Shown in pieces: positions 1-37,982 of a DNA stretch of 64,000 bases. The stretch lies in the NCBI GenBank assembly GCA_903944345.1, contig CAJARJ010000011.1, positions 3,460-67,459 on the forward strand, given 5' to 3'. This DNA is from Candidatus Omnitrophota bacterium (GTDB lineage: Bacteria > Omnitrophota > Gorgyraeia > Zapsychrales > Fredricksoniimonadaceae). Made by a program: the position numbers and the translations under genes. The notes below the pieces were generated by a model that was given only the letters and a program-made list of their open reading frames with translations, searched no databases and was not told the origin of the DNA. Each line of letters begins with the position of its first letter. Within the stretch, counting starts at the first letter, position 1.

Positions 1-726
1 GTCCGGGTTCAAATCAATTCCCTTAACCAGGGAACGATCAGCATAAGCCGCAGACAACAAGGCACCTCGCAGAGCACGTTTGTACCAGGCCGCCAGAACC
101 ATTCCGCTGTATATCTGTCTCAGCCCGGCAAAATGCTCTGAACGATTCACTTCTTCGGTTATAACCGGAACCAGCACACTGCCCGCAGGCGATGCGGCCG
201 CGCTCATCGCTTTCAGACGCTGTTCCAGCAGATAAACGGTATTATCTTTTTCATAAAGTACGGCGCGTTCGGGCAGTATCCAGATTTTGCTAAGCATTTC
301 TGCCGACGTAGCCGTTTGCCAGAATGTCTGTCCGGTTACGGTGTCTGGATCCGTCAGGACAGACGCGGACTGTTTGAGAACCATGTCTTGCGCCAGAAGA
401 TCTCTGCCCATAAGGGTATGGCCGAAATTGGGGGCCGTTAACCGACCAGGTTCATCAGGAGAAAGGTTAACCCACTGGTCTTCATCGGGCACGGCCAAAG
501 CGGCCAGGAAATATTTGACCAGGCGCAAATATTCTTGCTGACGTTCACCCGGAGCAAGATTCTCGTTACCACGATCAATCAGGAACTCCAGGCTGAAAGG
601 ATTGCGTGGGTCAACCGTAAGCCCAGCCAGAACCGGTGACTGGGCATGCCCGTTTACCGGTATAACGACAATAAAAAGAAAAAATAAGTAGAATAAGTAG
701 TGACACACAGAATTGTTTCTTAACAT
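1..726 (-). CDS. Paralog A of the secreted multi-domain protein family (5' part only; the gene runs off the left edge). Signal peptide plus the shared N-terminal module.
   Basis: Manual minus-strand translation from the ATG at 726-724: MLRNNSVCHYLFYLFFLFIVVIPVNGHAQSP... It is open to position 1 (242 codons), which is why it is not in the ORF track. It aligns with the N-termini of the 2814-, 936- and 1384-aa proteins (WVNLSP, GRDLLAQD.VLKQ, KIWILPERAVLYEK, EEVNRSEHFAGLRQIYSGMVLAAWYK). Confidence 0.6.
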   Translation of the reverse strand, partial: MLRNNSVCHYLFYLFFLFIVVIPVNGHAQSPVLAGLTVDPRNPFSLEFLIDRGNENLAPGERQQEYLRLVKYFLAALAVPDEDQWVNLSPDEPGRLTAPNFGHTLMGRDLLAQDMVLKQSASVLTDPDTVTGQTFWQTATSAEMLSKIWILPERAVLYEKDNTVYLLEQRLKAMSAAASPAGSVLVPVITEEVNRSEHFAGLRQIYSGMVLAAWYKRALRGALLSAAYADRSLVKGIDLNPD

Positions 727-728
727 AT

Positions 729-745
729 TGTGACATTATATCACA
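729..745. promoter_or_regulatory. TGTGA-N7-TCACA palindrome (tgtgacattatatcaca) immediately upstream of the paralog A start codon. On the minus strand it reads GTGATATAATGTCACA and contains a TATAAT -10-like hexamer.
   Basis: Seen directly in the sequence. A Crp/Fnr-like inverted repeat, but with a 7-bp spacer rather than 6. Confidence 0.3.
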
Positions 746-787
746 TTGTAATAAAATGTTAAAGGACTGCACAAAACAATTCTGTAT

Positions 788-813
788 GTCACGAATTATA
801 GTCACGAATTATA
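788..813. repeat. Tandem direct repeat, 2 x 13 bp (gtcacgaattata), lying between the stop of the giant gene and the 18-bp motif copy at 775-792.
   Basis: Seen directly: gtcacgaattata gtcacgaattata. Confidence 0.7.
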
Positions 814-3800
814 TCAGGGGGAAATAAAAAACGCCCGGATGTCTTTTTCAGGTTTTATGGCCACAATCACCGGAACTAGCCCGCTGATATCCGCATATTT
901 TTGTAAAATAGCCGGCGAAATATCCATGTCCATACCACCATCATGGCTTATGGCAAGATCAAAACGGGAAGTATCCAGATCAATACCACCGGGATTATCT
1001 TCCGGCACAGACGTGTGATCCGGATCAGCAGGTATTCCCCTGTCTTCCTCGATCAAACGAAGTGTTCGATCAACAGAAAAAGGCAAAAAACTCCCCGCAT
1101 TTACCCGGTTTACCTGCCAGGCCGCGTTTAACAAAAACAGCCAGGCCGAAGGATGACGCAAAAGAGATTCCCCTGAAACTCCCGTGAAAAGATCATCAAG
1201 TCTTTGCGCATAACTATTCTCCAGCAGTAATGTTCCATTATCAGTTAACCGCATTCTCCCCTTCATGCCCGGTCCGGCAGGAGCTATATTCAACCGGGAC
1301 AAATCCACCCCCAGAAGCCGCTGACTGTCAGCAAAAAGACGACGGCTCCATTCCTGCGCACCAGGCAGCCAAGCGGGTGCAACGCTGTCGCGAGAGATCT
1401 GCCCGGCTGAAGAGTCCCCAGAAGATTGAAGAAAATTGTTTATATCCGGAAGATTTACCGGTTTGACGGCCTCAGCCTCGCCGGATTTCTGCCGGACTGT
1501 TTGCGTTTCTTCAGGCTTTTGCGCGGATGCCTTACGCGACCGACGGGAAGCAATCGAAGCTCTGGCAAAAATGATCCCGGTTACAATAAGAAAAAAAGCC
1601 GTGATACCTCCCACAACGAAAGCAACCGGGTGCATCAGAATTTTCGCCGCTCTGGCACGGAAGGAGAAATCGTCCGCCACCTTGTACTCGCGGGAAACAT
1701 CCTTGAATGAATCCTGGAACTCTGTCAGCCCGACGCTTGAATCGCCAGAAACAGTCGAAGGCACTCCCGTGTCTGTACCAGGCACCGGAGGATCGTACTC
1801 TCCTTGCACATTCCGGACATTGACAATGTTGTCCGTTCCCCAGGAAAAAGGAATAATCGTACCGTTCTGTCCGACAACATAAGTATCCGCATGATAACTG
1901 TTGGAGAAAACTCTTCCGTAGTTCTTGTAAATATGCACACTGCTGTCCAAAGCACGATAACCCATACGATTTAGAAACAACCCGTAATACCGGCTGATAT
2001 CTCCGCAGGCTCCTCCAGCTTTTTTATCCGGGTCACCTCCACCGGTAATTTTCATCAAAGCGTCTGTTGCGGTGACATCCCCCTGATAAACCTCTCTGGT
2101 ATCATCGTACTCAATAAAGTCTGCGGTCATTTCCAGTGTCTTAAGAACCTTTTCCCTGGCAGAGAGAGAAACGTCTTCGGAAATGGCGCGTATTTTCTTT
2201 TCCAGAACAGGATAAGTCTGCATGGCATGAAACTCCTGGTTGTCCTGATCAACCACCGGAATCTGCCCAGCAGGAAGACGATTGTTTTTATCCCGGCGCG
2301 GAATAATATACGTGATTGTTCCTGAGGAAGTAAAATCCTGCTTCACCGTGACATGCCCCCGGCTGATCGAAGTCTGGTCAAAAAGCGCCAAAGGAATAGT
2401 TGATGTCATAATTCTCTCGGGAACACCGTCTACAATCTGCGGAAAATAAATAGTCTCTCCGGCCTGATGCGGCCCCAACGGCATGGTAACAATAACCGCT
2501 TCTCCTGTCCGCTTGCCCTGCGGCTCCATTTCCCTTAAAGCAACTGTTTTCCCGTTTCCGTCGGAATAATGAAAGGCATGGATCAGATACTCCCCCGGGC
2601 GCATTCCTGTCACCTGATAAAGTGAAACGGCATTCCTGCTTTCAGGAACAGATCGAGGCAATTCAATACCATTCGTCAGATACGGATAACCACCTTGTTC
2701 AGCCAGAAAAATAACCGCTCCAGTCAACGCAACCGCCGCTGCCTTGCGCCACCTGACAGGAAAAACACGCTCAAGGGTTACCGAAAAGGTCTCACTGGTA
2801 CTCAAAGGACGGGCTTTCAGGACTGACGGAATATCTTCGTGCTGGGGAGGAAGAATGAAGGGCGAATCGATTTCCGGTGCATCGAGTGTCTGAACAGAAC
2901 CGCCGCGGTAAATGTCCAGAAGGCTCATCGGGCCATTAACCGTATCAAACTTCACCCGCACCATCAAACGGTACCAGTGTTTTAACATGTCTTCTTCCGG
3001 CACCAGATCAAAGCGGCTCTGCTTGTCGGAGGATGTATAGGCATTATTCAAATAGGCTGAAAATCTCCTGATCTCGGGATACCTGCTCTCATCTTCGCCG
3101 GCTCTCTCCAGAGAGGCCTTGACAGAAGCGACAATGTCAGGATCATTTATCCTGTCTGAACGCACCGCCAGAGCCAGCATGGCCTTAAGCCCTTCACTTG
3201 CGCGGATCAATGGCCAGTACGCCGGATAAGCCGGCTCCGTGCGGGCCTTGGTGGGCAAAATACCGTCCGGTATTTCCGTATCCACCCCCCATGACAAAAG
3301 AGTGCGCTGGACTTCCACCGGAATAACACCGTCCCAATATCTGGAGGCCACCGCGTCCAGAGGTGCCGGCATGGGCAGATTGTCCTGCAAAACCCTGCTA
3401 AGAGAATGCCCTGTGATCAAAAGACGCGAATCGGAAAAATCTCCGAAACGCAAAGACGCAGCAGGCTCTCCCGGGCGATTGAGTTTTTCTCCGTTTAAAA
3501 AAATATCGACATCTTCCACCGCACTTCCATAGTACTCAAACCGTTTCTTTATTTTGCTGGCGTAGCGCCTCAGCTCCGCCATCGATTCAAACACCCTTTC
3601 CTGGCGGATCAAGGTTCCGTGAAGAGGCTCTTGATCCTGCAAAGACACCACTTCCCGTTCCTGGAGCGAATCAACCACCAATGTCCCGTCTTCCTTCCTG
3701 GAAGCTGAAAGCACAAACCCGTAATTTGCAGGGGCCCCGGCGGCCACACGGGAGACCGGCAGGCTTTCAACCACAATCCTGTCGCCAGGAAGGGTTTGGG

Positions 3801-6800
3801 CCCATATGGTATAAAAGCCCTGCCCCATATGACGCGACTTACTGGTGGCATCCAGAGGAAGAAGTTTGTTAATCATGACATAATCATCCATGCCATCGCC
3901 TTTGTCCCGGATCTGGAGAGCCAGCGTATATTTCCCGTCAGTACGCGCAACAGAGTACAGGCGCACAGCAATGTCTTTCTGTTGGCCCTCCTGTCCGGAA
4001 CGAAGTGCGTCCCGGGCATTCTGCAAAAGCTCCCGCGGCAAGGTGGTAGGATCCTGCCCCGAGATGGCCGAAAAAATTTCCTGATCATAACCGGCTTTGA
4101 CATCCCCAGGAAAAGAAGAACCCAGTTCTCTGTCCAGCCCGGAGATATCCAGATCAGAATCTGCCCGGTTACGCGCGGAAAGAATATGGGCCAAAGGGAT
4201 ATCTTCAAGGCTATGAATTATTTTCCCTTCCCCGGGGACAAGAGATTCGAAGGTATCTCTCGCTGGCACAGACATGGCCAAGGGGTATAAAAGAGCATGC
4301 CAGAACTCCCGCATGGCCGGCGGGGCCTGATCCTGGTATTCGGACGCAAGCAAACGAACACCGGGCATTGTTTCCTGTCCGACAACATACCTGCGGTTTA
4401 TTTGATCCAGAAACCCTCTCGCCGAGAAAGGATCATCTCCGGCAAGCGCTTCTACCCAGGCAGACACAACCGTATTGAGCTTTTCCGGAACAAGCGTATC
4501 GAGAACAGGATCCATCCTCTCAAAAAAAAGGAACAACTCATTCTCCGCGGACAAAACGGTTGTCTGCACATACCTGAGAAGCGAAGAACGAACTTCATCA
4601 GAAAGCCGTCCTAATACCCGAGCCGAGGCAAACGGCAAAAGTGGGGCAAGAGAATCTGTTATAAGCTCAGGCGGCAAAGAAGCCAGATTGTCGAAAAGCC
4701 GCCGAAGTCTCAGAACGGAGAGATATTCTTTTCCTGACTCCGACTCCGGCACGGCCTCAATTTCTTCCGAAGAAGGGAAATCGAGCCTCTTCCAAAACTT
4801 CTTCATTGACCCCGTCGCCGGCAACAAAACATGGTCCGCGGCCAACACAGGAGTGGAACTCCATTCTCCCGGGGGAAGAAGTTCCCATAAATTATAAAAA
4901 CGACGGGCTTCCTTATCGAATATATAACCAGAGAACTTTTCTATAGAACCAATGCCGCCACCCAAAACAACAAAATCATATCGACCCGGTCCGCCGATAT
5001 AACGTGTAACATCTCTATCTGCGGGAAGTGGTATTTCCTGCAAGGAGCCATCGGCAAGATCAATACTCACCAATTTCTTTCCGGCCACTCCGTAAAGGCT
5101 GCCCTGCCAACGGGTAAAACTTAAGTCCGACTCTTCCGTATTCAGTTTCCCACGAAGAACAAGACCATCAAAAACCGTATATTGACTGCCTATCGTATAA
5201 ACATAAAGGCAGACTTCTCCGGATTTTTTTTTGCTCCTGGTCAAGGCGTAAACATATTTATCATCAGCTGAAGAATATAACAGTTTTTGATTAGACGGAT
5301 AAATAATAACCGGTATCCGCTTGATCTTTCTTTCCGAAAGAGTAACTCGTGCGATTACACCCATGCCACCCAGAAAAAATTTGTCAGCAATATAAACATC
5401 TCCCTCAGGCCCGGGGACCGGAGCCATCGCCGATGGAGAGGAATATCTGTAAGACCTCTTCTTGTTCAGATCAAAAAGCAAATGAGCCCAGTTTCCGAAT
5501 ACAGGTATACTCAAATCAACGAACCCTGGAACGGACTTTGAAGGAAGAAGTTTTGATAAATGAGCTTCGAAACTGGAAAGATCAAAGTGCTTCCTCAAGA
5601 AATAAAGCCCACCATAATCTGAAATCAAAAGCCACCACAAAGAATAACCTATACCAAGGAAGGTAAATAAATATGATAATGCGTAATAATAAGTAAAATA
5701 GTACTGATACTGAAGGCAAAGAATCAAAAACGCAGCAATTTCTAGTGATTGACGAATCCGCAGACCTTCCCCGGGAACGATATTCTTTCTGACATCCCAG
5801 AACGTTTGCCGCGCAATAATGGATATCAGACCAACAGAAATCAGCCCTATTGTCGATGTAAAACCACCTACTGCATATACACCAAGAGCGATCACTGCCA
5901 GAGACATAACTGAAACCAGTAAATGAACGACATCTCCAGCAGACAACTTGTTTCTTAACGGAATATTCATCACAAAACGCCCCTGGTTCACAGTCAAACC
6001 AAACGGAGTGGCTGTTGAATTTTGCAGCAAATCATGGGATGAATACCTCCCGCTTTTCTTGCCCGTAAGAGAGTTGATCGCCCAACGATAGGATCTATCA
6101 GCTCTTTGCTCCCATCCAATAATTTCGTTGCTATTGAATACTGACTCATTGTTCGTATCGGTCACAACAAATTCAGGAGCGTCATTCCACAGATAATGAC
6201 CGTCACTCAGCGCACCCTGCGGGTGCATCTTGCGGAAAGGTCTCCAGTCGGGGTCATCCGCATCCGGTTTTGACACCGTTGAAATCATTACGCCGTCGCT
6301 GGTAACCTCCTCCACAGTATTAGCACCTAGTGTCCCGGATGACGACTCGACCGACTCCACGGCCTGGGCGAGGCCATTCGCGCTCAGTGCAGCCGATTGC
6401 AGGTTATTACGAAGCCTTTGAGTGTCTCCGGCGGAAAGTCCGGATCCCTCTTCTAATCTCTGCAAAACAATCCCCAAATCTTCCTTCAGATTCCCGGCCT
6501 CTTCTGCCGGTAAAGTAAAGCTGACAATACCGTTCTCCCGCAAAACAGCATTCATAAACTCTGCCGACTTGTGCCTGTCGGGTGCCTGTAACAGTGTTTC
6601 TTCCTGGGAATTCGATATAAACAACGCTTCTCTGCCAAAAGGAATCATCAATGCTTTATCCTCCGACGGCAAGACATAAACTCTCTGCCCGCGAAAAGAC
6701 CGGGAACGGTTCAGCGAAGAATCCAGAAGCTCGCTTGAGCCTGTAAAAAATGCATCATCCAGATAAAAAAGCGCCAGACCTGAAAGATCCTGCCCCTCCA

Positions 6801-9258: not shown

Positions 9259-9282
9259 AAGGAAAGTTTAGACTATATGCGC

Positions 9283-9348
9283 ATAGAATGCCAAAAAGGC
9301 ATTAAACATACTGGGAACACAGAACCATTCCTTAACATATAGCGACAT
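9283..9348 (-). pseudogene. Remnant mini-ORF MLRNGSVFPVCLMPFWHSMRI* upstream of the giant gene, inside a duplicated 5' module. It is homologous to the start region of paralog A (MLRNNSVCHY...).
   Basis: Region 9335-9365 (cttaacatatagcgacattttatagc) is homologous to 719-745 (cttaacatattgtgacattatatcac). The equivalent ATG is followed by a stop after 21 codons. Confidence 0.4.
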
Positions 9349-9386
9349 TTTATAGCAATGCCACTAAACGTTAGAAAATGTCACGA

Positions 9387-9434
9387 AACAATTCTGTGTG
9401 TCACCGATTACCTAATTCTGTGTGTCACCGATTA
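9387..9434. repeat. Two copies of the 18-bp motif AACAATTCTGTGTGTCAC, arranged as a 2 x 21-bp tandem direct repeat (aattctgtgtgtcaccgatta, 3-bp spacer cct) upstream of the giant gene.
   Basis: Seen directly. The same 18-mer is at 775-792 (one G-to-A change) and inverted at 700-717. A partial copy (cagaattgt) is at 14407-14415. Confidence 0.7.
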
Positions 9435-10460
9435 ACGAACTCTCTCTCCAATAAACTCAAAATAAGGAGAAAGCACATCCTCTTCAGGAAAAACCTCGGG
9501 AGCAATCCGAAAAAAAAGTTTTTTGAAATCCTCCAAATGATAATCCAGTATCGTCAAATCCGTATCATAACGACTGGAACGCACCTGATTGTGCATGCAA
9601 AAAAAATAACGAGCGCTTGAGAAAACCCGTGAACGAAAATAATATTCAAACCACTCCCGGGACATCTCCCCCAACGAAGAAATTCCGCTGAAAACATCAA
9701 CTGACCCTGTTTGCAGCCGCTCATAAAGAAACGGCGGCAACAGAATAAAATCATGCGCCAGAATAAAATCACGATCAATTGACTCCAGCGCTGCTATCGT
9801 CTGATAGGAAGCAATCTTCGCCTCCGGAAAATGTGTTTGCAAGTAATAATGCGCCAGCGCCAAAGGCTCGGGAAAGTCCAGCAACACCTGAGAACAACAA
9901 GGATTATCTCTTTTTATCAAGGCAGAGAAATATCCATAATTCCCTCCAACATCCATCAAGGTAAAATTCTCCTCCAGCCCTGGCAAAACATAATGCCGGA
10001 ATAGCAGCAAAAAATAGACCCGAATCAGCCATTTCTTTGTAAATGTATACCCGTTATAGAAAAACAATATCGGGCCTCCCACATCATCACAGGGATAGTC
10101 ACGCAAAAGATCAAGAACACCAACTCCTCCAAGACAGACCTCTTTGCAAGCCTTGTAAAGAAGCAAAAGCTCCTTGCGCTCCTGCGGCAATATTTTATCT
10201 GCATTACGAGATCCCAACGGATTATGCCGGGAAGGGATATCCGCAATAAATATCTCCAGATTGCGAAAATTTCTTACTGCCTCACGATTCAAAGTCCCGT
10301 CAGGAGAAACAAATTTATCTGCCCGGGGATAAACCTGGGCCTCCGATGTCCCACCAAGATAAAGTTCCGGCTGCGAGCAAAGAAATTCTTTTTGCATACG
10401 CAAATCCTGCTCAATAAGGCCAAACAGGAATTGCTCTCTGTTCGACAAAACCATACCCAT
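9432..10460 (-). CDS. Class I SAM-dependent methyltransferase (FkbM / sugar O-methyltransferase-like).
   Basis: Glycine-rich SAM motif LMDVGGNYGYFSALI. 342 aa. Embedded in the paralog array. Confidence 0.55.
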   Translation of the reverse strand: MGMVLSNREQFLFGLIEQDLRMQKEFLCSQPELYLGGTSEAQVYPRADKFVSPDGTLNREAVRNFRNLEIFIADIPSRHNPLGSRNADKILPQERKELLLLYKACKEVCLGGVGVLDLLRDYPCDDVGGPILFFYNGYTFTKKWLIRVYFLLLFRHYVLPGLEENFTLMDVGGNYGYFSALIKRDNPCCSQVLLDFPEPLALAHYYLQTHFPEAKIASYQTIAALESIDRDFILAHDFILLPPFLYERLQTGSVDVFSGISSLGEMSREWFEYYFRSRVFSSARYFFCMHNQVRSSRYDTDLTILDYHLEDFKKLFFRIAPEVFPEEDVLSPYFEFIGERVR

Positions 10461-10495
10461 CCTTTCCAGAAGTTATGACAAATTGGGATCCCAAA

Positions 10496-11437
10496 TCAAC
10501 GCCGCATCAGTCTTATTAACCAGAATAAAAACGGCCCGTAGCACAAAAGACAACCGATAAAAAGAAAAGGGGCAAAAGGAACACGAGACTTGATTTCCTT
10601 CATATGCTCGCTCAGTTCATTGACAATTTGTGAGAAAATGGTCAATGGAATCATGCGCAGCAAAAACCTTCCCGCAGCATCCGCCGAAAATATTGTATAC
10701 GAACTAAAGAACTGGAACAAAAGTCCCCCAAGGGCAAAAGTATAAACAAAACATTTAAAAAGCTTTCCGGAAGGATTCAGGGCAAATACCCCGCGATAAA
10801 TAAAGAAGATAATACAAATAACCAAAGGATTCCCCGAAGGTATCCTGAAGAAACCAAAAAGAGGGAAAATGGCCCATGAGATGACGGTTGTTATTTCAAA
10901 CGAATAAATCAGATTTTGTACTGTTTTTAACGAACACACCGCCCTGAAAATATCACGAAAATGAGAAACAACCCCGTCAAAAATCATCGGGAAAAGGAAA
11001 ACCATGCCCGCCAGGAATGTATTAATAAAATGCGCCAGACAAGGAAGCGGCGCTGACCTCTCATAAATATGGGAAGGCATAAGAAGGGCATACACCATAA
11101 AAAGCTTGGCATCCCCCGGTCTCCAGATATTGTTAACAAAAAGCAGAAAGGCCCCCAGCGCCGCTGCCGCAACATTTACAAGAAGAGGCACAGGCTCAAT
11201 GATATGCGCCATAACAGCCCAGACATGCAGAAAAATCCCGGCCAGGGAAGCAACAATAAGGTGAATATTCCTGATCTTGCGTTCCCGGATATCCGTAAAA
11301 GAAGTCATAGCCCCGGTTACAACAAGCAAAACCCAAAGAAGGGCCAAATAAATCCCGTATGGAGCTATTGTCATGAAAAGACCCTGGAAGATTATTTCAA
11401 ACCTACGTGCAACTGTTGAACTATATTGTCCGGCCAC
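10496..11437 (-). CDS. Polytopic membrane protein with an A24-family aspartic peptidase signature (prepilin peptidase / CpaA-TadV-like) and an extra C-terminal ~4-TM extension.
   Basis: TSFTDIRERKIRN after TM1 matches D-x-R-x-R-x-I-P-N (P replaced by R). WRPGDAKLF matches the GGGDVKL second-aspartate motif. About 8 predicted TM helices. No pilin or flp gene nearby. Confidence 0.45.
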   Translation of the reverse strand: MAGQYSSTVARRFEIIFQGLFMTIAPYGIYLALLWVLLVVTGAMTSFTDIRERKIRNIHLIVASLAGIFLHVWAVMAHIIEPVPLLVNVAAAALGAFLLFVNNIWRPGDAKLFMVYALLMPSHIYERSAPLPCLAHFINTFLAGMVFLFPMIFDGVVSHFRDIFRAVCSLKTVQNLIYSFEITTVISWAIFPLFGFFRIPSGNPLVICIIFFIYRGVFALNPSGKLFKCFVYTFALGGLLFQFFSSYTIFSADAAGRFLLRMIPLTIFSQIVNELSEHMKEIKSRVPFAPFLFIGCLLCYGPFLFWLIRLMRR

Positions 11438-11529
11438 AGGATGATCCGGAGTTCTATAAAAAATGAACGCGCGACAGGTCTATCATAATGCATCCTGTAC
11501 GCGCGTTCAATTATTCACTTGCCTAAAAA

Positions 11530-14274
11530 TCAGCGAAGAATACCGCTCTCCAACGGACGAATAAACTCGATTCGAACCTTCAAACCTTCCAGCCTGATTC
11601 CGGAGAAGTCCTGCTCTGACACCGGAAGAGGAATGCCTTCTCCATCACGCTGGATCTGCATATCAAGATGTTTCTGGGCCAGATCGATACCACCAACCTC
11701 ATCACTTCGGACAGGGATTGCAGATGCATCGGCGGCTGCCGCAGCAAACTCATTACGATAAGCCTCAACCCTGGCAATAACCCCATCAAGTTCATCAGCA
11801 CTCTCAATATCTCCTGCCGGAATATCAAAGTCGATCCACTGGGTGCGAGGAATATGTACCCCCAGATACAAACGCTCAGCATCAAGTCTCATGGTAAGAT
11901 CTGACGCTTGCTTACGGGCCAAGGCGAGAAAATCATCCATTAACTTTATTCGGGCTTCTCTAAGGGTACCGTCCAACAGGCGCGCCACGCCACCCCAACC
12001 CAAATCAGTCAACCGGGACAACGCAGGATTAAACAAAGTAACATCCATCAGCTTGCGATTCCGGTAACCGGACTGTGTCACGGCAATCTTGACAAATGTC
12101 ATCCCGCTATAAACTTCAACATCAAAAGCCGTCGCTTTGTAAGGGACAAGCGCAGGGAAAAATGCTTTTAAAAGCGACATCGTCACCCTTTGATCCGGAA
12201 CTATCCTGCCCTCGATGGAAAGCCGCTCCTGTCTGGTGATCTGGCTTGGCCAAACAAAAGTTTTTTCCTGCACAGCCTTAGAGGCAATCTTCTGACGGAA
12301 AGATTCGTCCGCAAGCAACTGATTAAGGTCTTGAACCAGATCTCCTGATTCGACAGGAGTAACATCCAGCTCTGTTTTCAAAACCTCCAGAAGCTCTGTC
12401 GGAGACATTCCTGCTTGCTGAAAGTCTTCCCACTGAAAAAGCGCCAATTCAGGATATATAACATTCTCCAAATGGAACATCTTGCGCCCCGGCGCAAGCA
12501 TCATCTCCTGATCAGCAGAAATAACCCCCGTCAAAGACTGAAGGATTTCCGGTTTCTCCATGGCAGCAACGCTGATTTCTGTCCTCTGGACAGAAGAATC
12601 CCCCTCGGCCAGCAGCTCTAACCCTCTGGTATGCTGCTCCAGCATTGCGAGCAAAGACTGCGGAGTCACCTCAGCACCCGCAGGAAAACGCACATCAAAG
12701 GCATTCCCGTCCTGCGGAACAACCCGAAGAACAGGAATATTGCTCTGCATTTCGATGGTATAGCGAACAGACCTGTCGTTATCCTTAAGCTGTTGCAACA
12801 ACGCCGCAAGCCTGTCAGTCTGCAGACGCAATACCATGGCACGCAAAAAACTGACCGTATCCGACCAGTTGGCTTTGGCGAGTTCCAGAAACCGGGACTG
12901 ATCAACGCCAAACAGTGTTACTTGCATAAGAGCATCGGAGTCCTTATCGGAGACAACAACCTTCAAATACGGCATCGCTCCTCCGCTACTGATACTTACA
13001 TTATAAATATCCCTGCCTTTGTTTATCTGATATGCAACCATATTTGTGCCGGCATAAGACTTGCGAACCGGATCCTTGCCGGAAAGAACTCCCATAACCC
13101 GGAATAAATCAAGATTATAAATCTGGTTCTCCCGTAACGAAATGCTGAATTGCGCATCATCCACAGCGGAAACCAGTGAAACACGCATATCTTCCAGGCC
13201 AGAAACCTGGGCTTCGTCTGCGGACGAAAGCGCAGAAACGCGCTTGGCCGAATCGATGGCCGCTGTTGCATTGGTCATACCCCCCGAGAAATACTTGCGG
13301 GGAACCGGCTGGGCACCATAACTATCCACATCATCCCGGATCACGTTGTAGGCCCCGGCACGAAACGCCTCCAGATATTTCTGATAAATTTCTTCATTAA
13401 CCCGGGGATCCTGGCGAATTCCGGCCAGTCTTGATTTATCGCCGTAAAGCGACGTCAGTATGCTTTCCCTGAGAGCCTGTTTGTACCATGCCGCCAGGAG
13501 CATCCCGCTGTAAACCTGTCTTAACACCGCAAAATCCTTGCCTTCATTTACTTCCTGTTCAAGCACAGGCAGAATCACTTCCCGCATAACCTCACGGCTT
13601 AACTGTGTCAATTCCGTGTTTGCCGGCTCAAGGACATCCCGGCCCTGTGCGGCAAGGTAATCTGATTCCAGCTGAACCTTCAGCCGGGATTCAAGCACAT
13701 ACACGGCACTGCCCTTCTCATACAACTTTACCGAGTCGGGCGTAATCCACACCCGGTTGAACACATCGGTCGGGATATCCGTTATGGCATACTGGCGGTA
13801 AGCCCGCTCGTAAATTTTTTCCCAGAATTTTTTACCCAGCTCGGTGGAAGGATTACTTAAAGAAGAAGCCGCCTGCTTGAGCAGGTAATCCTGTACCAGC
13901 AAATCACGCCCCATCTCGGTCTGACCAAAGTTGTCGGCAATAATGCGGTCTTTTTCGAAAGGAGAAAGGTTCACCCACTGATCCGTGTCGGGCACTGTGA
14001 CCGAAGCCAGAAAATATCTGATCAAACGGCTGTATTGCTCCTGTTTTTGCGCATCATCCAGGCTAACATCTCCGCTTTGAACAATAAAATCCAGTTTGAA
14101 GGGATCTTTGGCATCAATAACAATCCCTTTAAGAACCGCAGGGCGATCCGTCGGAATGATCATGCCGGGCGAAACAGCAGGCGTTCCTGTCAGCTGAGCA
14201 AAAGCCGCGGAAGGAAGAAAAGTTGTGGAAACAAAACATAACAAAACAAAACAGGCAACAATACGTCGTAACAT
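11530..14274 (-). CDS. Secreted protein (about 915 aa from the MLRRIV start), paralog C: signal peptide, shared N-terminal module, unique middle, shared C-terminal tag.
   Basis: ORF 11530-14340. The likely start at 14274 (MLRRIVACFVLLCFVSTTFLPSAAFAQ) is preceded by AAAAGGAC. N-terminal module is about 65% identical to the giant protein. C-terminal VGGIDLAQKHL...GLKVRIEFIRP. Confidence 0.75.
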   Translation of the reverse strand: MLRRIVACFVLLCFVSTTFLPSAAFAQLTGTPAVSPGMIIPTDRPAVLKGIVIDAKDPFKLDFIVQSGDVSLDDAQKQEQYSRLIRYFLASVTVPDTDQWVNLSPFEKDRIIADNFGQTEMGRDLLVQDYLLKQAASSLSNPSTELGKKFWEKIYERAYRQYAITDIPTDVFNRVWITPDSVKLYEKGSAVYVLESRLKVQLESDYLAAQGRDVLEPANTELTQLSREVMREVILPVLEQEVNEGKDFAVLRQVYSGMLLAAWYKQALRESILTSLYGDKSRLAGIRQDPRVNEEIYQKYLEAFRAGAYNVIRDDVDSYGAQPVPRKYFSGGMTNATAAIDSAKRVSALSSADEAQVSGLEDMRVSLVSAVDDAQFSISLRENQIYNLDLFRVMGVLSGKDPVRKSYAGTNMVAYQINKGRDIYNVSISSGGAMPYLKVVVSDKDSDALMQVTLFGVDQSRFLELAKANWSDTVSFLRAMVLRLQTDRLAALLQQLKDNDRSVRYTIEMQSNIPVLRVVPQDGNAFDVRFPAGAEVTPQSLLAMLEQHTRGLELLAEGDSSVQRTEISVAAMEKPEILQSLTGVISADQEMMLAPGRKMFHLENVIYPELALFQWEDFQQAGMSPTELLEVLKTELDVTPVESGDLVQDLNQLLADESFRQKIASKAVQEKTFVWPSQITRQERLSIEGRIVPDQRVTMSLLKAFFPALVPYKATAFDVEVYSGMTFVKIAVTQSGYRNRKLMDVTLFNPALSRLTDLGWGGVARLLDGTLREARIKLMDDFLALARKQASDLTMRLDAERLYLGVHIPRTQWIDFDIPAGDIESADELDGVIARVEAYRNEFAAAAADASAIPVRSDEVGGIDLAQKHLDMQIQRDGEGIPLPVSEQDFSGIRLEGLKVRIEFIRPLESGILR

Positions 14275-14487
14275 GAACAGTCCTTTTCTTACAGAGTAAA
14301 ATCCGCCCCTCGCGTGTCGGGCCCGGACCGGATTAAACAACCAGGACAGAGAAGCCGATAAAGACTCTCTGCTATTCTATAATTTATTTGATTCGAAAGA
14401 TTCTAGCAGAATTGTCATAAAAAGTCAATTATGGCAATAAATGCAAGTTTTTGCAAAAACACTGGTCAACGATGCTGCAGGTAAGGG

Positions 14488-17400
14488 TTAGTTTGGAGTC
14501 AAGCCCAAAACAACTGAAAGCCGCGCGACCGGAGTCACTTCAAGAATGACGGGAGAAAGCCCATAAAAATCGCCCCGGAAGGCGCTCTGCAAAGCATCAA
14601 AACTGAAGGAAACCCGGCCTGGGTTGCGCTGACCGGACAGGACGATATCCTTGATGTCAATACCGCCAACAGGCTCCTGCGCCTGGTCTACCCCGTCGGG
14701 AATAGCCTGAACAATGCCTCCCGGAAGAATACCGTATTCCATAAGAACACGGAACACTTCCGAAACACTCCAGGCCTGGGAAGGCGTCCCGCCCGCAGAA
14801 CGCTGGCCATTTTCCCTAGGTTCGGCATCATAAACTTCCGCAATCGACCCTGTTGCCAGGAAATCCCGCACCAGCGGATCAAGCACCGCCGAGATTTCTC
14901 TTTTTATATCTTCATCCGGCCTGTTTTGCGCGCGCAAAACCTTGGCCAAAGCATCAACATACCCACCAATAAGCCATGGCCAAACCGTCCCCTGATGATA
15001 CGCATAATCTTTATGCCAATGGAAATCAGGATGTCCGGGAGAAGGCTGAAAAGATGTGTCATAACGCGGCCTGTAATGGGAATCCCTGGGGTCCAGCGTA
15101 CGCAGCCCCTTGTCGGTAAGAAGCCTTCGAGTCACCGCATCCACGACCTGCTTTTGTCTTTCAAAAGAAAGCAAATCCTCACCATGACTGACCGCAAAAA
15201 TCATGTTGGGCCGCACGGCGCCACCATGTGAATCCCCCTCGATCACATCAAAAAGTAAATTCTCAGGCTCATCAACATCTGCAGAAACCGGACGATCATT
15301 CCAGAACTTCTTGTTAAAACTGCTCTTGACCTTGAGCAACAAAGCCTGCAGCCTTGAGGCTTCAACCTCAACATCTTCGATATTCATCGAAACTTTCATT
15401 TGCTCGGTCAATTGCCCGCCCACCTCCGAGAGAAGACGCACCAGATACCTGAGATTCGCATACCACAAAGCATTGATCTCGACAGCTTTTCCATTGCGCG
15501 GCGTGACCGGCCCCTGTGCATTCGGATCGGCATCCATCCAGGTGGCCTGTGATGGGCTAGAAATCAGGGCATCCGAGGGATCCATGTAAATGCGGTTATA
15601 ATTATTTGCAGGAAAAGCGTTAATATGTTTGGAACGGTCATATCCGACGCCTTTTTCGTAGGCCGTCAGAATAGCACGGACAACCGGAAACATTTCCAGG
15701 GCAAAAGCCTGATCCCCGGAGTATTCAACGTACTTTTTGACCGCCTGGATAAACCACATCGGGCCGTCAACAGTATTGTACTCGTTCCACTCCGGATGAC
15801 GGGAATCTGGAATACGGTTGGGGATCAGTCCGTCTTTCATGAATGAAGCAAAACTGCGAATGACCGCGCGCGCTTCTTCAAAACGCCCGGTTGCAAGCAG
15901 AATACCTGGCAAGGAAATGAAGGTATCCCTCCCCCACTGCTCCAGAAACCATTCACTGGGACGCCCCGCAGCCCATATCTCGACAACAGGCTTCCCATTG
16001 CGCTCGACGTGCTGGACAAAGGAGTCGGCGGTCATGGCCAGGACACCCCGAAGCGCCGCACGCACCTCGACTGAAGCCCCTTCCAGGCTGAAATACCCCC
16101 CCCGATGCAAATCAGGCAGAAGTTCATGCAAACGAAACAAATCCGAAGCCTTGAACCTTGTCCGCGAAAAATAATCCTGATCACCGGGCAAAGGAATACG
16201 GTAACGCCAGGTGGAGTGACCATCAGCTTCTTTTTTGAGCGGCTGCTTATCTCCGTGAATATCTCCCATGGCCAGCGCAAGAAAAGACGAACGGCCCGCA
16301 GTCAGGCTGTCCAGTTCACGCTTGGCAGTCTGAACCTTGCGAATAAACGCCACCGAATTTGCATGATAGTTACGCGGATCATCGTGAGTCGATATACGTT
16401 TGTAAAGACCGTCCATTGGCACAATGCCATGACGTTGTATATCATAAAATGTATTGTTGAAGGCCTCGGCAACAACAAAGGCCTGACGGTCATTAAAGAT
16501 CTTTGCAACCGCAGCCACAAGGGCGTCACCGGGTTCAGCCTCAAGATTATCCTGTCCGATATTATAAGCAAAATGCAAAGCATCAATCCTGGCGCCGTCG
16601 AAACCGAAGTCCAGCCAGAATTGCATCGGATCGGTGATCAACCTGAATTTGTCTTCTTTAAGTTTATCCCAATTCCACAACGCCAGATCACCCCATACCA
16701 CCGGAAGGAAAGACAAGCCCGGGCTTAACCCCTCCTCAAGCCCGCGAAAATATTCCGGAGAGGCTGTAATATCAACACTGTCTTTTCCGCGAAAGAACGG
16801 AATATCAAACAACAGCTTGCCGCCCTCGGCATGAACCTGATCAACTGCTTTCCTGAACTGACGAAAGGCAATCCACTGCCGGAAAAGATGCTGCTGGATA
16901 TTCGACTGCCTGTCACCCGACTCTCTTTCAGCTTTCCAGCGGGCAAAGGTTTGCAGCTTCACCGACAGATTCGGATCCGTTTGAGTCTTCTCCAAAAAAT
17001 CTTTGGCAAGCGAAGTATCCTTACCCAGATGCCTGGACGAAAAAAGCCTCCAGACCTGCAAGGACAAAGCGGCATTACGCTCCCGGACAGAAGGAAAATC
17101 GATCTCGGCAGAAGTCCCGGCAGGAGCTTCAAGGAGATCTTTGACGGAAGCAAGAATAGCCTGTGCATCCTGATCATCCTCGGACATTTCCCGTATAAAA
17201 AGTTCCCAGTCAACCAGATCTTCGTTTAGCGCATATAGATATTCGGGAGCATACGGACTTTCGTGACGAATAGAATAAAACGGCATCAGCTGCATTACAG
17301 AAACACCCTGCGGTATGGCGGTCTCACGATAATATAAGGGAATATCCGAGAATTTGCCAATTCCCGGATCGCCCTGTTGGCGACGCAAAGCCGAAACAGC

Positions 17401-18606
17401 CACTTCTTCAACAATATACTGCCTGTTTTCCTGCTTCCACCAGACAGGCGCTTCGGCTTTGGCAGACTGCGCAGGACTCGCCGCCCAGTCCACGGCAAAC
17501 ACCTGACCTTGTTCTGTTTGAGAAATTTGCGCAGCATCCGCACGCGTTACAGGGATCTGTCCAAACTGCATCCCACCGGCGAAATACTTCCTGGGAATAA
17601 CTTCTCCATCAGGCCCCGGTTCTTCCCGGATGAAATCAAAGATACCTTTTTTATACGCCTGGATATAACGCTGATAAATATCTTCCTTGACCCCCGGCTC
17701 CGGTGCAGTAACCCCCGCCACCTTGTTTTGTCCGGCGTATTTCCGGGCAACAAGGGTTTCCCGGATCTGCTCACGGTACCATTTGCCCAGGATAGCCGCA
17801 TGATAAATCTGCCTGGTCACGGCAAAATTTTTTCCTTCATTGACCTCTTTTTCGATAACCGGAAGGATCACAGAACGCATAATATCCCGAACCAGGGCTT
17901 CGTTAACATTCTCCTGCTGCTGATCGACATTCCCGGCAGAAGCGGTGCGGTCACGGTCAAGCATGACCTTGAGCCGGGCGCCGGTCACATAAACAAGATT
18001 ATCTTTTTCGTAAATTTCGGCCCGATCCGGCATGATCCATATCTTGTTAAAAACATCTACCGGGATATCAGTTGTTCCAAAACGGCTATGCGCCACAGAG
18101 TAGATTTCTTTCCAGAAAGACTTGCCCAGCCCCTTGTCGGGATACACCAGCGAAGCCGCCAGCTGTTTGAGCACATAATCCTGCGCCAGCATATCGCGGC
18201 CAAGAACAGTTTCACCCAGCTGTCCTTCGACAATCCGGTCTTTTTCAAACGGCGAGAGGTTAACCCACAACTGGTTTTCAGGAACGGTAACAACCGCCAA
18301 GAAATACCTGGCCATGCGCTGGCTTTGCTCTGCGATTTCCCCGCGGGCGGGAATTCCATTTCCCGAATCAACAATAAAACGAAAATCCAGCGGACGAGCG
18401 GGATCGACTATAAGCCCTCTGACTAAAGGAGGAACATAACTTTCGGAAACCGCCAGCATATCCCCCGGGCCAGGAAGGGCAGCAATAAAGCCCCCCTGCG
18501 TCCAGGCAACGGAAGAGTCAAATATGAAAAAAAGAAGAGTTACAGCAGCAACAGATTTCTTAAAAAACAGGCGCGGAGAGAATGAAAGTAGAAAAGAATC
18601 AAGCAT
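14488..18606 (-). CDS. Secreted 4-alpha-glucanotransferase (GH77-like) plus amylo-alpha-1,6-glucosidase (GDE C-terminal domain) fusion, preceded by the shared N-terminal module and ending in the shared C-terminal tag. Paralog D (about 1372 aa).
   Basis: ORF 14488-18642; probable start at the second ATG (18606, MLDSFLL...). Signal peptide KKSVAAVTLLFFIFDSSVAWTQ. GH77-like motifs ESPYAPEYLYALN, LLFDIPFFRGKDSVD, FDGARIDALHF. GDE motifs HQGTVWPWLIGGYVDA and GDSHGGAVRPNMIFAVSHG. C-terminal VGGIDIKD...GLSPVILEVTP. Confidence 0.75.
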   Translation of the reverse strand: MLDSFLLSFSPRLFFKKSVAAVTLLFFIFDSSVAWTQGGFIAALPGPGDMLAVSESYVPPLVRGLIVDPARPLDFRFIVDSGNGIPARGEIAEQSQRMARYFLAVVTVPENQLWVNLSPFEKDRIVEGQLGETVLGRDMLAQDYVLKQLAASLVYPDKGLGKSFWKEIYSVAHSRFGTTDIPVDVFNKIWIMPDRAEIYEKDNLVYVTGARLKVMLDRDRTASAGNVDQQQENVNEALVRDIMRSVILPVIEKEVNEGKNFAVTRQIYHAAILGKWYREQIRETLVARKYAGQNKVAGVTAPEPGVKEDIYQRYIQAYKKGIFDFIREEPGPDGEVIPRKYFAGGMQFGQIPVTRADAAQISQTEQGQVFAVDWAASPAQSAKAEAPVWWKQENRQYIVEEVAVSALRRQQGDPGIGKFSDIPLYYRETAIPQGVSVMQLMPFYSIRHESPYAPEYLYALNEDLVDWELFIREMSEDDQDAQAILASVKDLLEAPAGTSAEIDFPSVRERNAALSLQVWRLFSSRHLGKDTSLAKDFLEKTQTDPNLSVKLQTFARWKAERESGDRQSNIQQHLFRQWIAFRQFRKAVDQVHAEGGKLLFDIPFFRGKDSVDITASPEYFRGLEEGLSPGLSFLPVVWGDLALWNWDKLKEDKFRLITDPMQFWLDFGFDGARIDALHFAYNIGQDNLEAEPGDALVAAVAKIFNDRQAFVVAEAFNNTFYDIQRHGIVPMDGLYKRISTHDDPRNYHANSVAFIRKVQTAKRELDSLTAGRSSFLALAMGDIHGDKQPLKKEADGHSTWRYRIPLPGDQDYFSRTRFKASDLFRLHELLPDLHRGGYFSLEGASVEVRAALRGVLAMTADSFVQHVERNGKPVVEIWAAGRPSEWFLEQWGRDTFISLPGILLATGRFEEARAVIRSFASFMKDGLIPNRIPDSRHPEWNEYNTVDGPMWFIQAVKKYVEYSGDQAFALEMFPVVRAILTAYEKGVGYDRSKHINAFPANNYNRIYMDPSDALISSPSQATWMDADPNAQGPVTPRNGKAVEINALWYANLRYLVRLLSEVGGQLTEQMKVSMNIEDVEVEASRLQALLLKVKSSFNKKFWNDRPVSADVDEPENLLFDVIEGDSHGGAVRPNMIFAVSHGEDLLSFERQKQVVDAVTRRLLTDKGLRTLDPRDSHYRPRYDTSFQPSPGHPDFHWHKDYAYHQGTVWPWLIGGYVDALAKVLRAQNRPDEDIKREISAVLDPLVRDFLATGSIAEVYDAEPRENGQRSAGGTPSQAWSVSEVFRVLMEYGILPGGIVQAIPDGVDQAQEPVGGIDIKDIVLSGQRNPGRVSFSFDALQSAFRGDFYGLSPVILEVTPVARLSVVLGLTPN

Positions 18607-18731
18607 GTGTTTATTCTTTCGTTCTTTATCATCGTTTGGCATAATTAATTATTATATTGCAGTTAGAGTCATTTACATGCTTGCAATACAATACCTGACA
18701 CAAAAAAAAAGTCAAGCGCCTGCCACCTCAT

Positions 18732-19415: not shown

Positions 19416-19431
19416 TTTGTCCCCTTGTAAT

Positions 19432-31436: not shown

Positions 31437-31576
31437 TCCTCCTTTGATTATCTTTAATAAACGTCAAACAAAGTTAACTTGCTTTTACTGCACCCCCTTT
31501 CAGAGGCGGGACACCGATCATATGCTGTATAATTCCATTTTGCTTTGCGGCGTCCTGCCTTCCTTTGGCTCCTGAA

Positions 31577-32889: not shown

Positions 32890-32894
32890 ATGAT

Positions 32895-33290: not shown

Positions 33291-33306
33291 ATTCCCCTCA
33301 ATCCCG

Positions 33307-34362: not shown

Positions 34363-34364
34363 GC

Positions 34365-37924: not shown

Positions 37925-37982
37925 TTCAAGACTACACTGCCAGCTGGCAGCTTGTCAAGGCGACAGGTGTATTTCTTTAATG

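What the first reader, a model, noticed from the sequence alone, without database searches (positions are those of the whole stretch)
1..18642. Tandem array of four secreted multi-domain paralogs with shared N- and C-terminal modules, plus a dedicated methyltransferase and an A24-type peptidase
Four consecutive minus-strand genes each begin with a Sec signal peptide and a roughly 330-aa module that is 40-65% identical between copies. These are the partial gene at 1-726, the 2814-aa gene, the 936-aa gene and the 1384-aa gene. The landmarks are RYFLA..T.P...WVNLSP.EKDRI, G.T..GRD.L.QDY.LKQ, TTDIP.D.FN..WI.PD, EKEVNEG..F...RQ.Y and PRKYF.GG. I cannot assign this module to any named family from the sequence. 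The three complete genes all end in a related roughly 55-aa tail with a VGGID(L/I) motif. The middle regions are entirely different between copies. Two non-paralog genes sit inside the array: a SAM methyltransferase and an orphan A24 (prepilin-peptidase-like) membrane protein. The architecture resembles known tag-plus-sorting-enzyme systems such as exosortase, rhombosortase or T9SS, but the tag does not match any of them.
Basis: partly seen in the sequence, partly recalled or inferred. Interest (0 to 1): 0.85.

Follow-up and report, generated by a model that had tools for sequence, protein, structure and literature searches.

The report
Omnitrophota exported proteins with shared ends
The four genes belong to a very large, unnamed protein family of the candidate phylum Omnitrophota, in which a signal peptide, a conserved 300-residue head and a conserved 60-residue tail frame unrelated enzyme cargoes; the neighbouring peptidase and methyltransferase genes are not part of it.

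Summary
Four minus-strand genes share a Sec signal peptide and a ~300-aa N-module (39-47% identity, BLAST E 1e-52 to 1e-105). The three complete genes end in a GGID(L/I) tail, which a profile built only from other genomes finds at exactly those three C-termini.

The interpretation as a tag with dedicated enzymes is not supported. No homologue of the A24-like peptidase or the methyltransferase occurs in about 1 Mb around 79 related loci. The peptidase has 8 homologues in 5.8 billion proteins, against 8,410 clusters for the N-module. Both genes have 43% GC against 50% for their neighbours.

What is there is a phylum-restricted family with shared ends:
- a cleavable signal peptide;
- an N-domain with a confident AlphaFold model but no Pfam, NCBIfam or PDB relative;
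- a D-x-A-M linker motif;
- unrelated cargo, often enzymes typical of the cytoplasm, such as phosphoglycerate kinase, glutamate dehydrogenase and Fic; gene C carries a glycogen-debranching enzyme;
- the D-x-A-M motif again;
- a tail that does not fold on its own.

My best reading, which is inference, is that head and tail are common export, docking or delivery handles for diverse cargo. Their partner is unknown.

The parts
1..726 (-). Gene D, cut by the window edge: signal peptide plus the first ~210 residues of the N-module
   Evidence: Translation. BLASTP to the A, B and C N-modules gives E 1e-52 to 1e-65. N-module HMM hit.
814..9258 (-). Gene A, 2814 aa. It has the signal peptide, N-module, a long cargo region and the tail. 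The cargo has no Pfam hit, two GHKL-type N-box motifs and hydrophobic TM-like segments.
8254..9177 (-). N-module of A (aa ~28-335, ending in PRKYFSGG). It is preceded by signal peptide aa 1-26 at 9181-9258.
   Evidence: Alignments A1 and A2. AlphaFold2 model with pLDDT 88.3 and pTM 0.88.
8224..8235 (-). D-L-A-M linker motif of A, 7 residues after the N-module
   Evidence: Position. The motif is enriched about 100-fold at this position across the family.
817..1002 (-). C-tail of A: EDNPGGIDL...GLVPVIVAIKPEKDIRAFFISP
   Evidence: Independent tail HMM, E 6.2e-15
9432..10460 (-). NanM-like sugar O-methyltransferase. It is a neighbour, not part of the family system.
   Evidence: NCBIfam TIGR04371, 4.5e-27. 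No homologue near 79 related loci. GC 43.6%.
10496..11437 (-). CpaA/TadV-like A24 aspartyl peptidase homologue with about 150 extra C-terminal membrane residues. It is a neighbour, not part of the family system.
   Evidence: Pfam PF01478, 28.1 bits. Only 8 homologues. GC 43.2%. The motifs TDIRERKIRN and PGDAKL were read by eye.
11530..14274 (-). Gene B, 914 aa from the ATG at 14274: signal peptide, N-module, cargo without a Pfam hit, and tail
13279..14193 (-). N-module of B
11533..11706 (-). C-tail of B, the 'LDMQIKRDG..PLP' subtype
   Evidence: Independent tail HMM, E 3.8e-9. The same subtype occurs in L038, L062, L074 and L079.
14488..18642 (-). Gene C, 1384 aa: signal peptide, N-module, GH77 4-alpha-glucanotransferase (nt 16582-17400), GDE_C amylo-1,6-glucosidase (nt 14749-16023) and tail
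   Evidence: Pfam GDE_C 6e-94 and Glyco_hydro_77 1.2e-16. Sources name the protein 'glycogen debranching enzyme'.
17572..18480 (-). N-module of C
14491..14679 (-). C-tail of C, the 'GF.G..PVIL.VTP' subtype, preceded by D-Q-A-Q at 14677-14688
   Evidence: Independent tail HMM, E 2.6e-7. Position.

Best explanation
The region holds four tandem members of a very large protein family that is confined, as far as names are given, to Omnitrophota. Every intact member has the same frame:
- a cleavable Sec (signal peptidase I) leader;
- a ~300-aa alpha/beta N-domain of unknown fold that ends in PRKYFSGG;
- a short D-x-A-M linker motif;
- a cargo region that differs from gene to gene;
- often the D-x-A-M motif again;
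- a ~60-aa GGID(L/F) tail at the very C-terminus.

I propose that head and tail are common address or docking handles. They would take many different cargo proteins, after Sec export, to one shared destination: an envelope site, an outer-membrane exporter, or a device that delivers them to a host or prey cell. The cargo then does the specific job. In gene C the cargo is a glycogen-debranching enzyme.

The frame and its distribution are shown. Export is inferred from the leaders. The handle function and the destination are inferred. The methyltransferase and the A24-like peptidase are an unrelated two-gene insertion into the array.
For: - Size and restriction of the family: 8,410 representative clusters (6,867 at E<=1e-30), with the module always at the N-terminus of proteins of 420-4,553 aa. 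Named hits are almost all Omnitrophica or Omnitrophota.
- The frame: 65 of 77 complete members in 79 loci carry the tail in the last 55-83 residues, against 10 of 649 other ORFs; 8 of those 10 carry the same tail and are downstream pieces of interrupted family genes or ORFs cut at the 5' end. In an independent set of representatives, 109 of 145 have one tail, ending a median of 6 residues from the C-terminus.
- The leaders are classic across the family: a K/R n-region, a 12-16 residue hydrophobic core, then AxA followed by Q, D or E.
- The N-domain model is confident (pLDDT 88, pTM 0.88). The tail alone is not (pLDDT 68.5, pTM 0.22, mostly coil), as expected of a linear signal that needs a partner.
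- Middles are unrelated in 1,762 of 1,770 pairs. N-module and tail divergence nevertheless correlate (Spearman 0.66, 0 of 999 permutations reach it; 0.86 within genomes). Matched head and tail subtypes recur across genomes.
- D-x-A-M lies within 60 aa after the head in 43 of 87 and 76 of 138 members, and within 30 aa before the tail in 19 of 75. Background is 0.25-0.5% per window.
- Cargo is diverse and of intracellular type: phosphoglycerate kinase (1e-107), glutamate and alanine dehydrogenases, glucan-water-dikinase-like, methyltransferases, ATP-grasp, HATPase_c, receiver domains, Fic, GNAT, HAD, GDSL lipase, WD40, ankyrin, HEAT and TPR. In the window it is GH77 plus GDE.
- The neighbours are not linked to the family.
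Against: - No partner machinery has been identified, and no conserved neighbouring gene exists.
- No localisation or processing data exist.
- The correlation between head and tail can arise from shared duplication history followed by cargo replacement, without any physical coupling.
- ATP- or NAD-dependent cargo is hard to reconcile with a life outside the cytoplasm, unless it is delivered into another cell.
- 13 of 64 members, including gene A, have TM-like segments in the middle. Not all members are simple soluble exports.
- Stand-alone N-module genes of about 350 aa exist, so the head may have a function of its own.
- The afdb50 structure library was unavailable. Relatives among predicted structures were therefore not excluded.
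Confidence: 0.45

Rival explanations
1. The GGID tail is a sorting tag that is cut or modified by the adjacent A24-type peptidase and the methyltransferase, as in exosortase or rhombosortase systems.
For: The two genes sit inside the array between paralogues. The peptidase keeps both Asp motifs, read by eye. A close relative's contig has the same order, B, A24, MT, A. The tail has an invariant GG.
Against: - Neither gene has a homologue within 10 kb of 98 family genes in 79 loci.
- The peptidase has 8 homologues against 8,410 family clusters.
- Its distant homologues are next to radical-SAM and HxsD genes, without family members.
- Both genes have deviant GC.
- The methyltransferase is a sugar O-methyltransferase type.
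- The tail has no TM helix, which intramembrane sorting proteases need.
Confidence: 0.04
2. Surface scaffold or clasp. The tail of one molecule docks into the N-domain of the same or another molecule. This either closes the protein into a loop or chains molecules head to tail into a cell-surface multi-enzyme layer, comparable in logic to cohesin and dockerin.
For: Each intact protein has exactly one head and one tail. The tail does not fold alone. Head and tail subtypes are matched even within one genome that holds several subtypes. The D-x-A-M motif flanks the cargo on both sides.
Against: The correlation may simply reflect common descent. The N-domain model is complete and confident without the tail.
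Confidence: 0.2
3. The N-domain is itself an enzyme or a ligand-binding domain, for example one that binds or modifies an envelope polymer. It would be the real function of the family, and the cargo and tail would be accessory.
For: About 60 invariant or nearly invariant positions include many polar residues: WVNLSPxE, GRDLLxQDYxLKQ, EKEVNxG, LRQ and PRKYFSGG. Stand-alone N-domain genes exist.
Confidence: 0.2
4. The proteins are not exported. The N-terminal hydrophobic stretch is a membrane anchor, and head, cargo and tail work on the cytoplasmic face, which would suit ATP- and NAD-dependent cargo.
For: The cargo types are cytoplasmic.
Against: The leaders have short 12-16 residue cores. Positive charges lie on the N-terminal side and acidic residues follow the core. 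A conserved AxA site is present. All of this is typical of cleaved Sec signals.
Confidence: 0.08

Closest known systems
Anthrax toxin LF/EF and similar binary-toxin enzymes, which share an N-terminal docking domain
   Same: They are Sec-exported proteins in which a shared N-terminal domain of about 250-300 aa is fused to different enzymatic cargoes that act inside another cell. The comparison rests on my own knowledge.
   Different: There is no sequence or fold similarity. Here there are thousands of cargoes instead of two, there is an additional conserved C-tail, and no pore-forming partner is known.
Two-partner secretion TpsA proteins and polymorphic toxins (CdiA)
   Same: Both have a signal peptide plus a conserved N-terminal secretion domain of about 250-300 aa, followed by long variable regions. 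Both form large paralogous, rapidly diversifying families.
   Different: Pfam finds no TPS (Haemagg_act) domain. The model is alpha/beta with long helices, not a beta-helix. No TpsB-like neighbour is conserved. The variable part lies between two conserved ends, not at the C-terminus.
Type 1 secreted RTX adhesins (LapA type): N-terminal retention module plus C-terminal secretion signal
   Same: The layout is the same: conserved N-module, variable middle, and a C-terminal signal of about 60 aa that is unstructured. A short Ala-containing motif follows the N-module; in LapA this is the cleavage site for LapG.
   Different: T1SS substrates lack Sec leaders, which this family has. There are no RTX nonapeptide repeats and no Pfam HemolysinCabind hit. 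There is no adjacent ABC, MFP or LapG-like gene.
C-terminal sorting tags: T9SS CTD, PEP-CTERM/exosortase, GlyGly-CTERM/rhombosortase
   Same: All are conserved elements at the extreme C-terminus, shared by many otherwise unrelated exported proteins of one lineage.
   Different: NCBIfam and Pfam give no hit. The tail has no TM helix or basic cluster. It is not a folded beta-sandwich. It is always paired with a specific N-domain.
Chlamydial secreted glycogen-metabolism enzymes (a PVC relative)
   Same: A member of the PVC superphylum exports enzymes of glycogen metabolism, which normally act in the cytoplasm. Gene C is a GH77 plus GDE enzyme behind a signal peptide. The comparison rests on my own knowledge.
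   Different: The Chlamydia enzymes use type III secretion signals, not a Sec leader with head and tail modules. No homology is implied.

Membership tests
PEP-CTERM / exosortase substrates | C-terminal PEP motif, then a TM helix, then an Arg-rich cluster; match to the NCBIfam PEP-CTERM models | tested here: not met
   NCBIfam gives no hit for A, B or C. The tails have no PEP motif and no segment with Kyte-Doolittle 19-residue hydropathy >=1.8.
GlyGly-CTERM / rhombosortase substrates | Gly-Gly, then a TM helix, then basic residues at the C-terminus | tested here: not met
   GG is present and invariant. It is followed by about 55 mostly polar residues without a TM helix. NCBIfam gives no hit.
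T9SS C-terminal domain (Por_Secre_tail) | An 80-100 aa beta-sandwich CTD that matches the Pfam and TIGRFAM models | tested here: not met
   Pfam and NCBIfam give no hit even at E<=10. The AlphaFold2 model of the tail is mostly coil, with pTM 0.22.
Two-partner secretion TpsA | N-terminal TPS (Haemagg_act) beta-helix domain; adjacent TpsB transporter gene | tested here: not met
   Pfam gives no hit. The model has 8 helices and 6 strands and is not a beta-helix. No neighbouring gene is conserved.
Type IV prepilin / class III signal-peptide substrates of A24 peptidases | N-terminal leader ending in Gly, cut before a hydrophobic segment, with Glu at +5 | tested here: not met
   The leaders are SPase-I type with an AxA site.
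Peptidase A24 (gene 10496-11437) | Match to PF01478 above the gathering score; two catalytic Asp residues | tested here: met
   28.1 bits against a gathering score of 26.5, which is marginal. The motifs D in TDIRERKIRN and GD in PGDAKL were read by eye. JGI names homologues CpaA.
NanM-like sugar O-methyltransferase (gene 9432-10460) | Match to TIGR04371 above its cutoff | tested here: met
   95.3 bits against a cutoff of 44
Glycogen debranching enzyme (cargo of gene C) | GDE_C amylo-1,6-glucosidase domain plus a 4-alpha-glucanotransferase domain | tested here: met
   GDE_C 6e-94 over profile positions 5-367 of 367. GH77 1.2e-16, but only over profile positions 2-279 of 465. Catalytic residues were not checked.

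The most novel reading that the evidence does not exclude
Head, D-x-A-M linkers and tail are the recognition elements of an undescribed Omnitrophota export and delivery route. This route would carry hundreds of cytoplasm-type enzymes and effector-like domains (glycogen and central-carbon enzymes, Fic, deaminase, ankyrin, WD40, receiver domains) out of these ultra-small, host-dependent bacteria and into or onto partner cells. The cargo might be released by cleavage at the flanking motifs.
Probability: 0.25. Interest if true: 0.9.

Novelty: new variant of a known kind. Interest (0 to 1): 0.68.

Why it matters
Omnitrophota are uncultivated, mostly ultra-small bacteria. Genomic traits suggest they are predators or parasites (PMC10066038), and how they act on other cells is unknown.

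A single family accounts for thousands of their 'hypothetical proteins'. It is exported and expanded within genomes (at least 7 loci in one MAG among the best 80 loci). It carries metabolic and effector-like enzymes between two conserved handles. That makes it an obvious candidate for the interaction toolkit.

The work also gives two new domain definitions and a linear motif that could be added to the domain libraries. It yields predictions that can be tested directly by proteomics on existing enrichment cultures.

Tried and rejected
- Pfam, NCBIfam, PADLOC and PHROGs on all genes, and Pfam at E<=10 on the isolated modules: nothing for the head or the tail.
- PDB searches by sequence and by profile: nothing.
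- The afdb50 library was not available.
- Literature: no paper links GGIDL or GGIDF to Omnitrophota. The giant-gene preprint and the Omnitrophota survey do not describe this family. Two further searches gave nothing relevant.
- A search for a conserved partner gene by clustering all flanking ORFs found only generic two-component proteins.
- The idea that N-module-only genes are always broken full-length genes was not upheld. It is supported for several loci, but not for L082, where the downstream ORF has no tail.
- A double-glycine (C39) cleavage reading of PRKYFSGG and GGIDL was considered. No evidence could be gathered for it.
Full report
**1. What is in the window**

Six minus-strand ORFs fill positions 1-18642:
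- D, cut by the window edge, at 1-726.
- A, at 814-9258 (2814 aa).
- A methyltransferase, at 9432-10460.
- An A24-like membrane protein, at 10496-11437.
- B, at 11530-14340. The probable start is the ATG at 14274, which gives 914 aa.
- C, at 14488-18642 (1384 aa).

The rest of the window encodes ordinary housekeeping, transport, signalling and chemotaxis genes.

**2.

The N-terminal ~300 residues of A, B, C and D are clear paralogues. BLASTP gives 39-47% identity and E 1e-52 to 1e-105, and no other window ORF matches.

Full-length comparisons find no similarity between the middles.

The tails are only marginally similar pairwise (E 0.005 to 0.2). I therefore tested them against the wider family. 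A profile built from 64 tails taken from other genomes finds exactly three of 438 window ORFs. These are A, B and C, hit at their last ~60 residues, with E 6e-15, 4e-9 and 3e-7.

**3. The family**

A profile of the four N-modules retrieved at least 1,788 proteins from the 5.8-billion-protein set. The top E-values were about 1e-125. Nearly all hits are unnamed or 'hypothetical protein, Candidatus Omnitrophica/Omnitrophota', without Pfam domains.

An exhaustive HMMER scan of 1.84 billion representatives at 50% identity found 8,410 clusters, of which 8,029 have E<=1e-10 and 6,867 have E<=1e-30. The module is always at the N-terminus, in proteins of 420 to 4,553 residues. Few hits are weak, so the family is sharply bounded.

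The best 79 loci are all MAGs labelled Omnitrophota or Omnitrophica, or 'uncultured Planctomycetales' for one batch of third-party assemblies. Single MAGs contribute up to 7 loci. Tandem pairs or triplets, like the array here, occur in a dozen loci.

**4. The frame**

In the 79 loci I found 98 ORFs with the N-module, always at the start of the protein.

- Of 77 ORFs that are complete at the 3' end, 65 carry GG[IV][DN][LIFM] 55-83 residues from the end, followed by a conserved tail. The consensus is GGIDLt...m.Lq.qn.G.gIkF.lDPAmL.qLQNApGFvPVIINIqPm.dLr.FLG.
- The same test on 649 other ORFs gives 10 hits. Eight of these carry the same tail and are downstream pieces of interrupted family genes or ORFs cut at the 5' end.
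- In an independent sample, the best 145 representatives from all metagenomes, 109 have exactly one tail. It ends a median of 6 residues before the C-terminus.
- Three tail subtypes exist, and A, B and C carry one each.

The leaders are textbook Sec/signal-peptidase-I signals throughout the family. They have basic residues, a hydrophobic core of 12-16 residues, and an AxA site followed by Q, D or E. The conserved LPAPGxMVxLSPxFxPP segment comes next.

- It lies within 60 residues after PRKYFSGG in 43 of 87 members from the loci and in 76 of 138 representatives.
- It lies within 30 residues before GGID in 19 of 75.
- The background is 0.5% and 0.25% per window in non-family genes.
- A has D-L-A-M seven residues after its head. 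C has D-A-A-Q after the head and D-Q-A-Q before the tail.

**5. Structure and relatives**

With 124 sequences, AlphaFold2 gives a confident N-domain model: pLDDT 88.3 and pTM 0.88, with eight helices and three beta-hairpins.
- Foldseek against PDB gives a best E of 0.08.
- Foldseek against viral models gives a best E of 0.16.
- Profile searches against PDB sequences give nothing.
- Pfam at E<=10, NCBIfam, PADLOC and PHROGs give nothing.
- The AlphaFold-database library was not available.

The tail, modelled with 107 sequences, does not fold on its own. It has pLDDT 68.5 and pTM 0.22, and is coil with one short helix.

**6. Cargo**

The middles are essentially all different. Only 8 of 1,770 pairs share similarity over at least 20% of the shorter middle.

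Two Pfam censuses were run, on 60 middles from genomes and on 55 representatives. They give 63 and 65 families, and none occurs in more than 3 proteins. The families include:
- metabolic enzymes: phosphoglycerate kinase (1e-107, full length), glutamate and alanine dehydrogenases, PPDK_N with the glucan-water-dikinase phosphohistidine domain, and UDPGP;
- other enzymes: SAM methyltransferases, ATP-grasp, HATPase_c, histidine phosphatase, HAD, GNAT, Fic and GDSL lipase;
- signalling and repeat domains: response-regulator receivers, WD40, ankyrin, HEAT and TPR.

One N-module gene is followed, 23 nt later and in another frame, by a MafB19-type deaminase gene.

In the window:
- C carries GH77 plus GDE_C, a glycogen-debranching enzyme.
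- A has two GHKL-type N-box motifs and TM-like segments, but no Pfam hit.
- B has no recognisable domain.

Most members (51 of 64) have no TM-like segment between head and tail.

**7. Head and tail go together**

Across 60 proteins, N-module distance and tail distance correlate with Spearman 0.66. No permutation out of 999 reached this value; the highest was 0.30. The figure is the same (0.656) when the 8 related pairs are left out.

Among 48 within-genome pairs the correlation is 0.86. B-type heads carry B-type tails in other genomes, although the middles are unrelated.

This shows that the two ends are inherited or selected as a pair while the cargo is exchanged. It does not prove contact, because duplication followed by cargo replacement would give the same signal.

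**8. The two interposed genes**

The methyltransferase is a NanM-like sugar O-methyltransferase (TIGR04371, 95 bits against a cutoff of 44).

The membrane protein is a marginal Peptidase_A24 match (28.1 bits against 26.5). Sources name its homologues CpaA. By eye, both Asp motifs are present.

Neither gene is linked to the family:
- No homologue of either is found anywhere in the 79 loci.
- No flanking gene family recurs in more than 5 loci, apart from generic two-component proteins.
- The peptidase has only 8 homologues in 5.8 billion proteins. Three are near-identical. The five at 31-35% identity include two that sit next to radical-SAM, HxsD and glycosyltransferase genes, with no head or tail nearby.
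- Only a near-identical contig repeats the order B, A24, MT, A.
- Both genes have 43% GC and GC3 of 0.43-0.44, against 49-51% GC and GC3 of 0.50-0.55 for the paralogues. This fits a recent insertion.

**9. Mechanism**

Shown:
- the common frame;
- its restriction to one phylum and its size;
- the absence of known relatives;
- the diversity of the cargo;
- the lack of any link to the neighbours.

Inferred from the leaders: the proteins are exported through Sec and cleaved after AxA.

My best reading, at about 0.45, is that head and tail are shared handles. They would bring diverse cargo to one destination after export: an envelope site, an outer-membrane exporter, or a device that delivers cargo to another cell. 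The tail needs a partner in order to fold. The D-x-A-M motifs that flank the cargo are candidates for hinge or release sites.

The cargo is of intracellular and effector-like type, and Omnitrophota are suspected to depend on hosts (PMC10066038). Together these make delivery to another cell attractive, but nothing here demonstrates it.

The rivals are a head-to-tail clasp or polymer, an autonomous enzymatic or binding function of the head, and a cytoplasmic membrane-anchored location. Each is scored separately in the report.

**10. Comparison with known systems**

The layout recalls several known systems:
- shared N-terminal docking domains, as in anthrax LF and EF;
- TPS domains;
- the N-retention module plus C-signal layout of type 1 secreted adhesins;
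- C-terminal sorting tags.

Every membership test that could be run failed (see the table). The family works at most 'like' these systems and is not a member of any of them.

**11. Verdict**

The specific claim of a dedicated peptidase and methyltransferase is not supported.

Noticed in passing
window 9238-9268 (minus strand): A 13-bp hairpin encloses the start codon of gene A (AACUUUCCUUAUG / UAUAC / UAUAAGGAAAGUU). Folding 9225-9300 gives -19.9 kcal/mol, z = -3.8, and 0 of 200 shuffles fold as well. It may control translation.
   Followed up: partly
window 9432-11437: The methyltransferase and the A24-like gene have 43.6% and 43.2% GC (GC3 0.43-0.44), against 49-51% for the flanking paralogues and the rest of the window. 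This looks like an inserted cassette.
   Followed up: yes
L027 18617-18619; L054 11324-11326; L060 4692-4694; L068 12309-12311; L048 7988-10960; L070 9824-12798: Family genes in other MAGs are often interrupted. Four have single in-frame stops (TAG, TAA, TAA, TAG) and two are split into pieces in overlapping frames. The cause could be pseudogenes, recoding or assembly errors among paralogues; this is not resolved.
   Followed up: partly
family-wide; in the window 8224-8235 (A), 17527-17538 and 14677-14688 (C): A short D-x-A-M (or D-x-A-Q) motif flanks the cargo, after the head and before the tail. It is about 100-fold enriched over background.
   Followed up: yes
window 814-9258, protein residues ~458-466, ~1742-1751, ~1113-1148 and ~2545-2563: Gene A has two GHKL-ATPase-like N-box motifs (ELMDNSIDA, RELLQNARDA) and hydrophobic TM-like segments, but no Pfam or PDB sequence match. 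It may be a membrane-spanning member of the family.
   Followed up: partly
L080 3760-4623, and the ERZ1426828 contig of P0244: Distant homologues of the A24-like protein lie next to radical-SAM and HxsD-type peptide-maturation genes and to glycosyltransferases. This hints at a different role for this peptidase subfamily.
   Followed up: partly
window 18732-19418 (minus strand): A small gene encodes a signal peptide followed by about 200 Ser/Thr/Gly-rich residues. It belongs to no family and is unrelated to the paralogues.
   Followed up: no
window 29421-42167: A complete chemotaxis cluster (MCP, CheD-receiver fusion, CheB, CheR, CheA-CheW) plus a 1394-aa multi-PAS hybrid histidine kinase. This Omnitrophota genome is probably from a motile organism.
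   Followed up: no
JGI sample 3300050821 contig (no locus id, no DNA held; gene at 7067-9727); L081 holds only its first 50 codons at 7067-7216: A stand-alone N-module gene (P0053) is followed 23 nt later, in another frame, by an 886-aa gene with a MafB19-type deaminase domain, which is a toxin-type cargo.
   Followed up: partly
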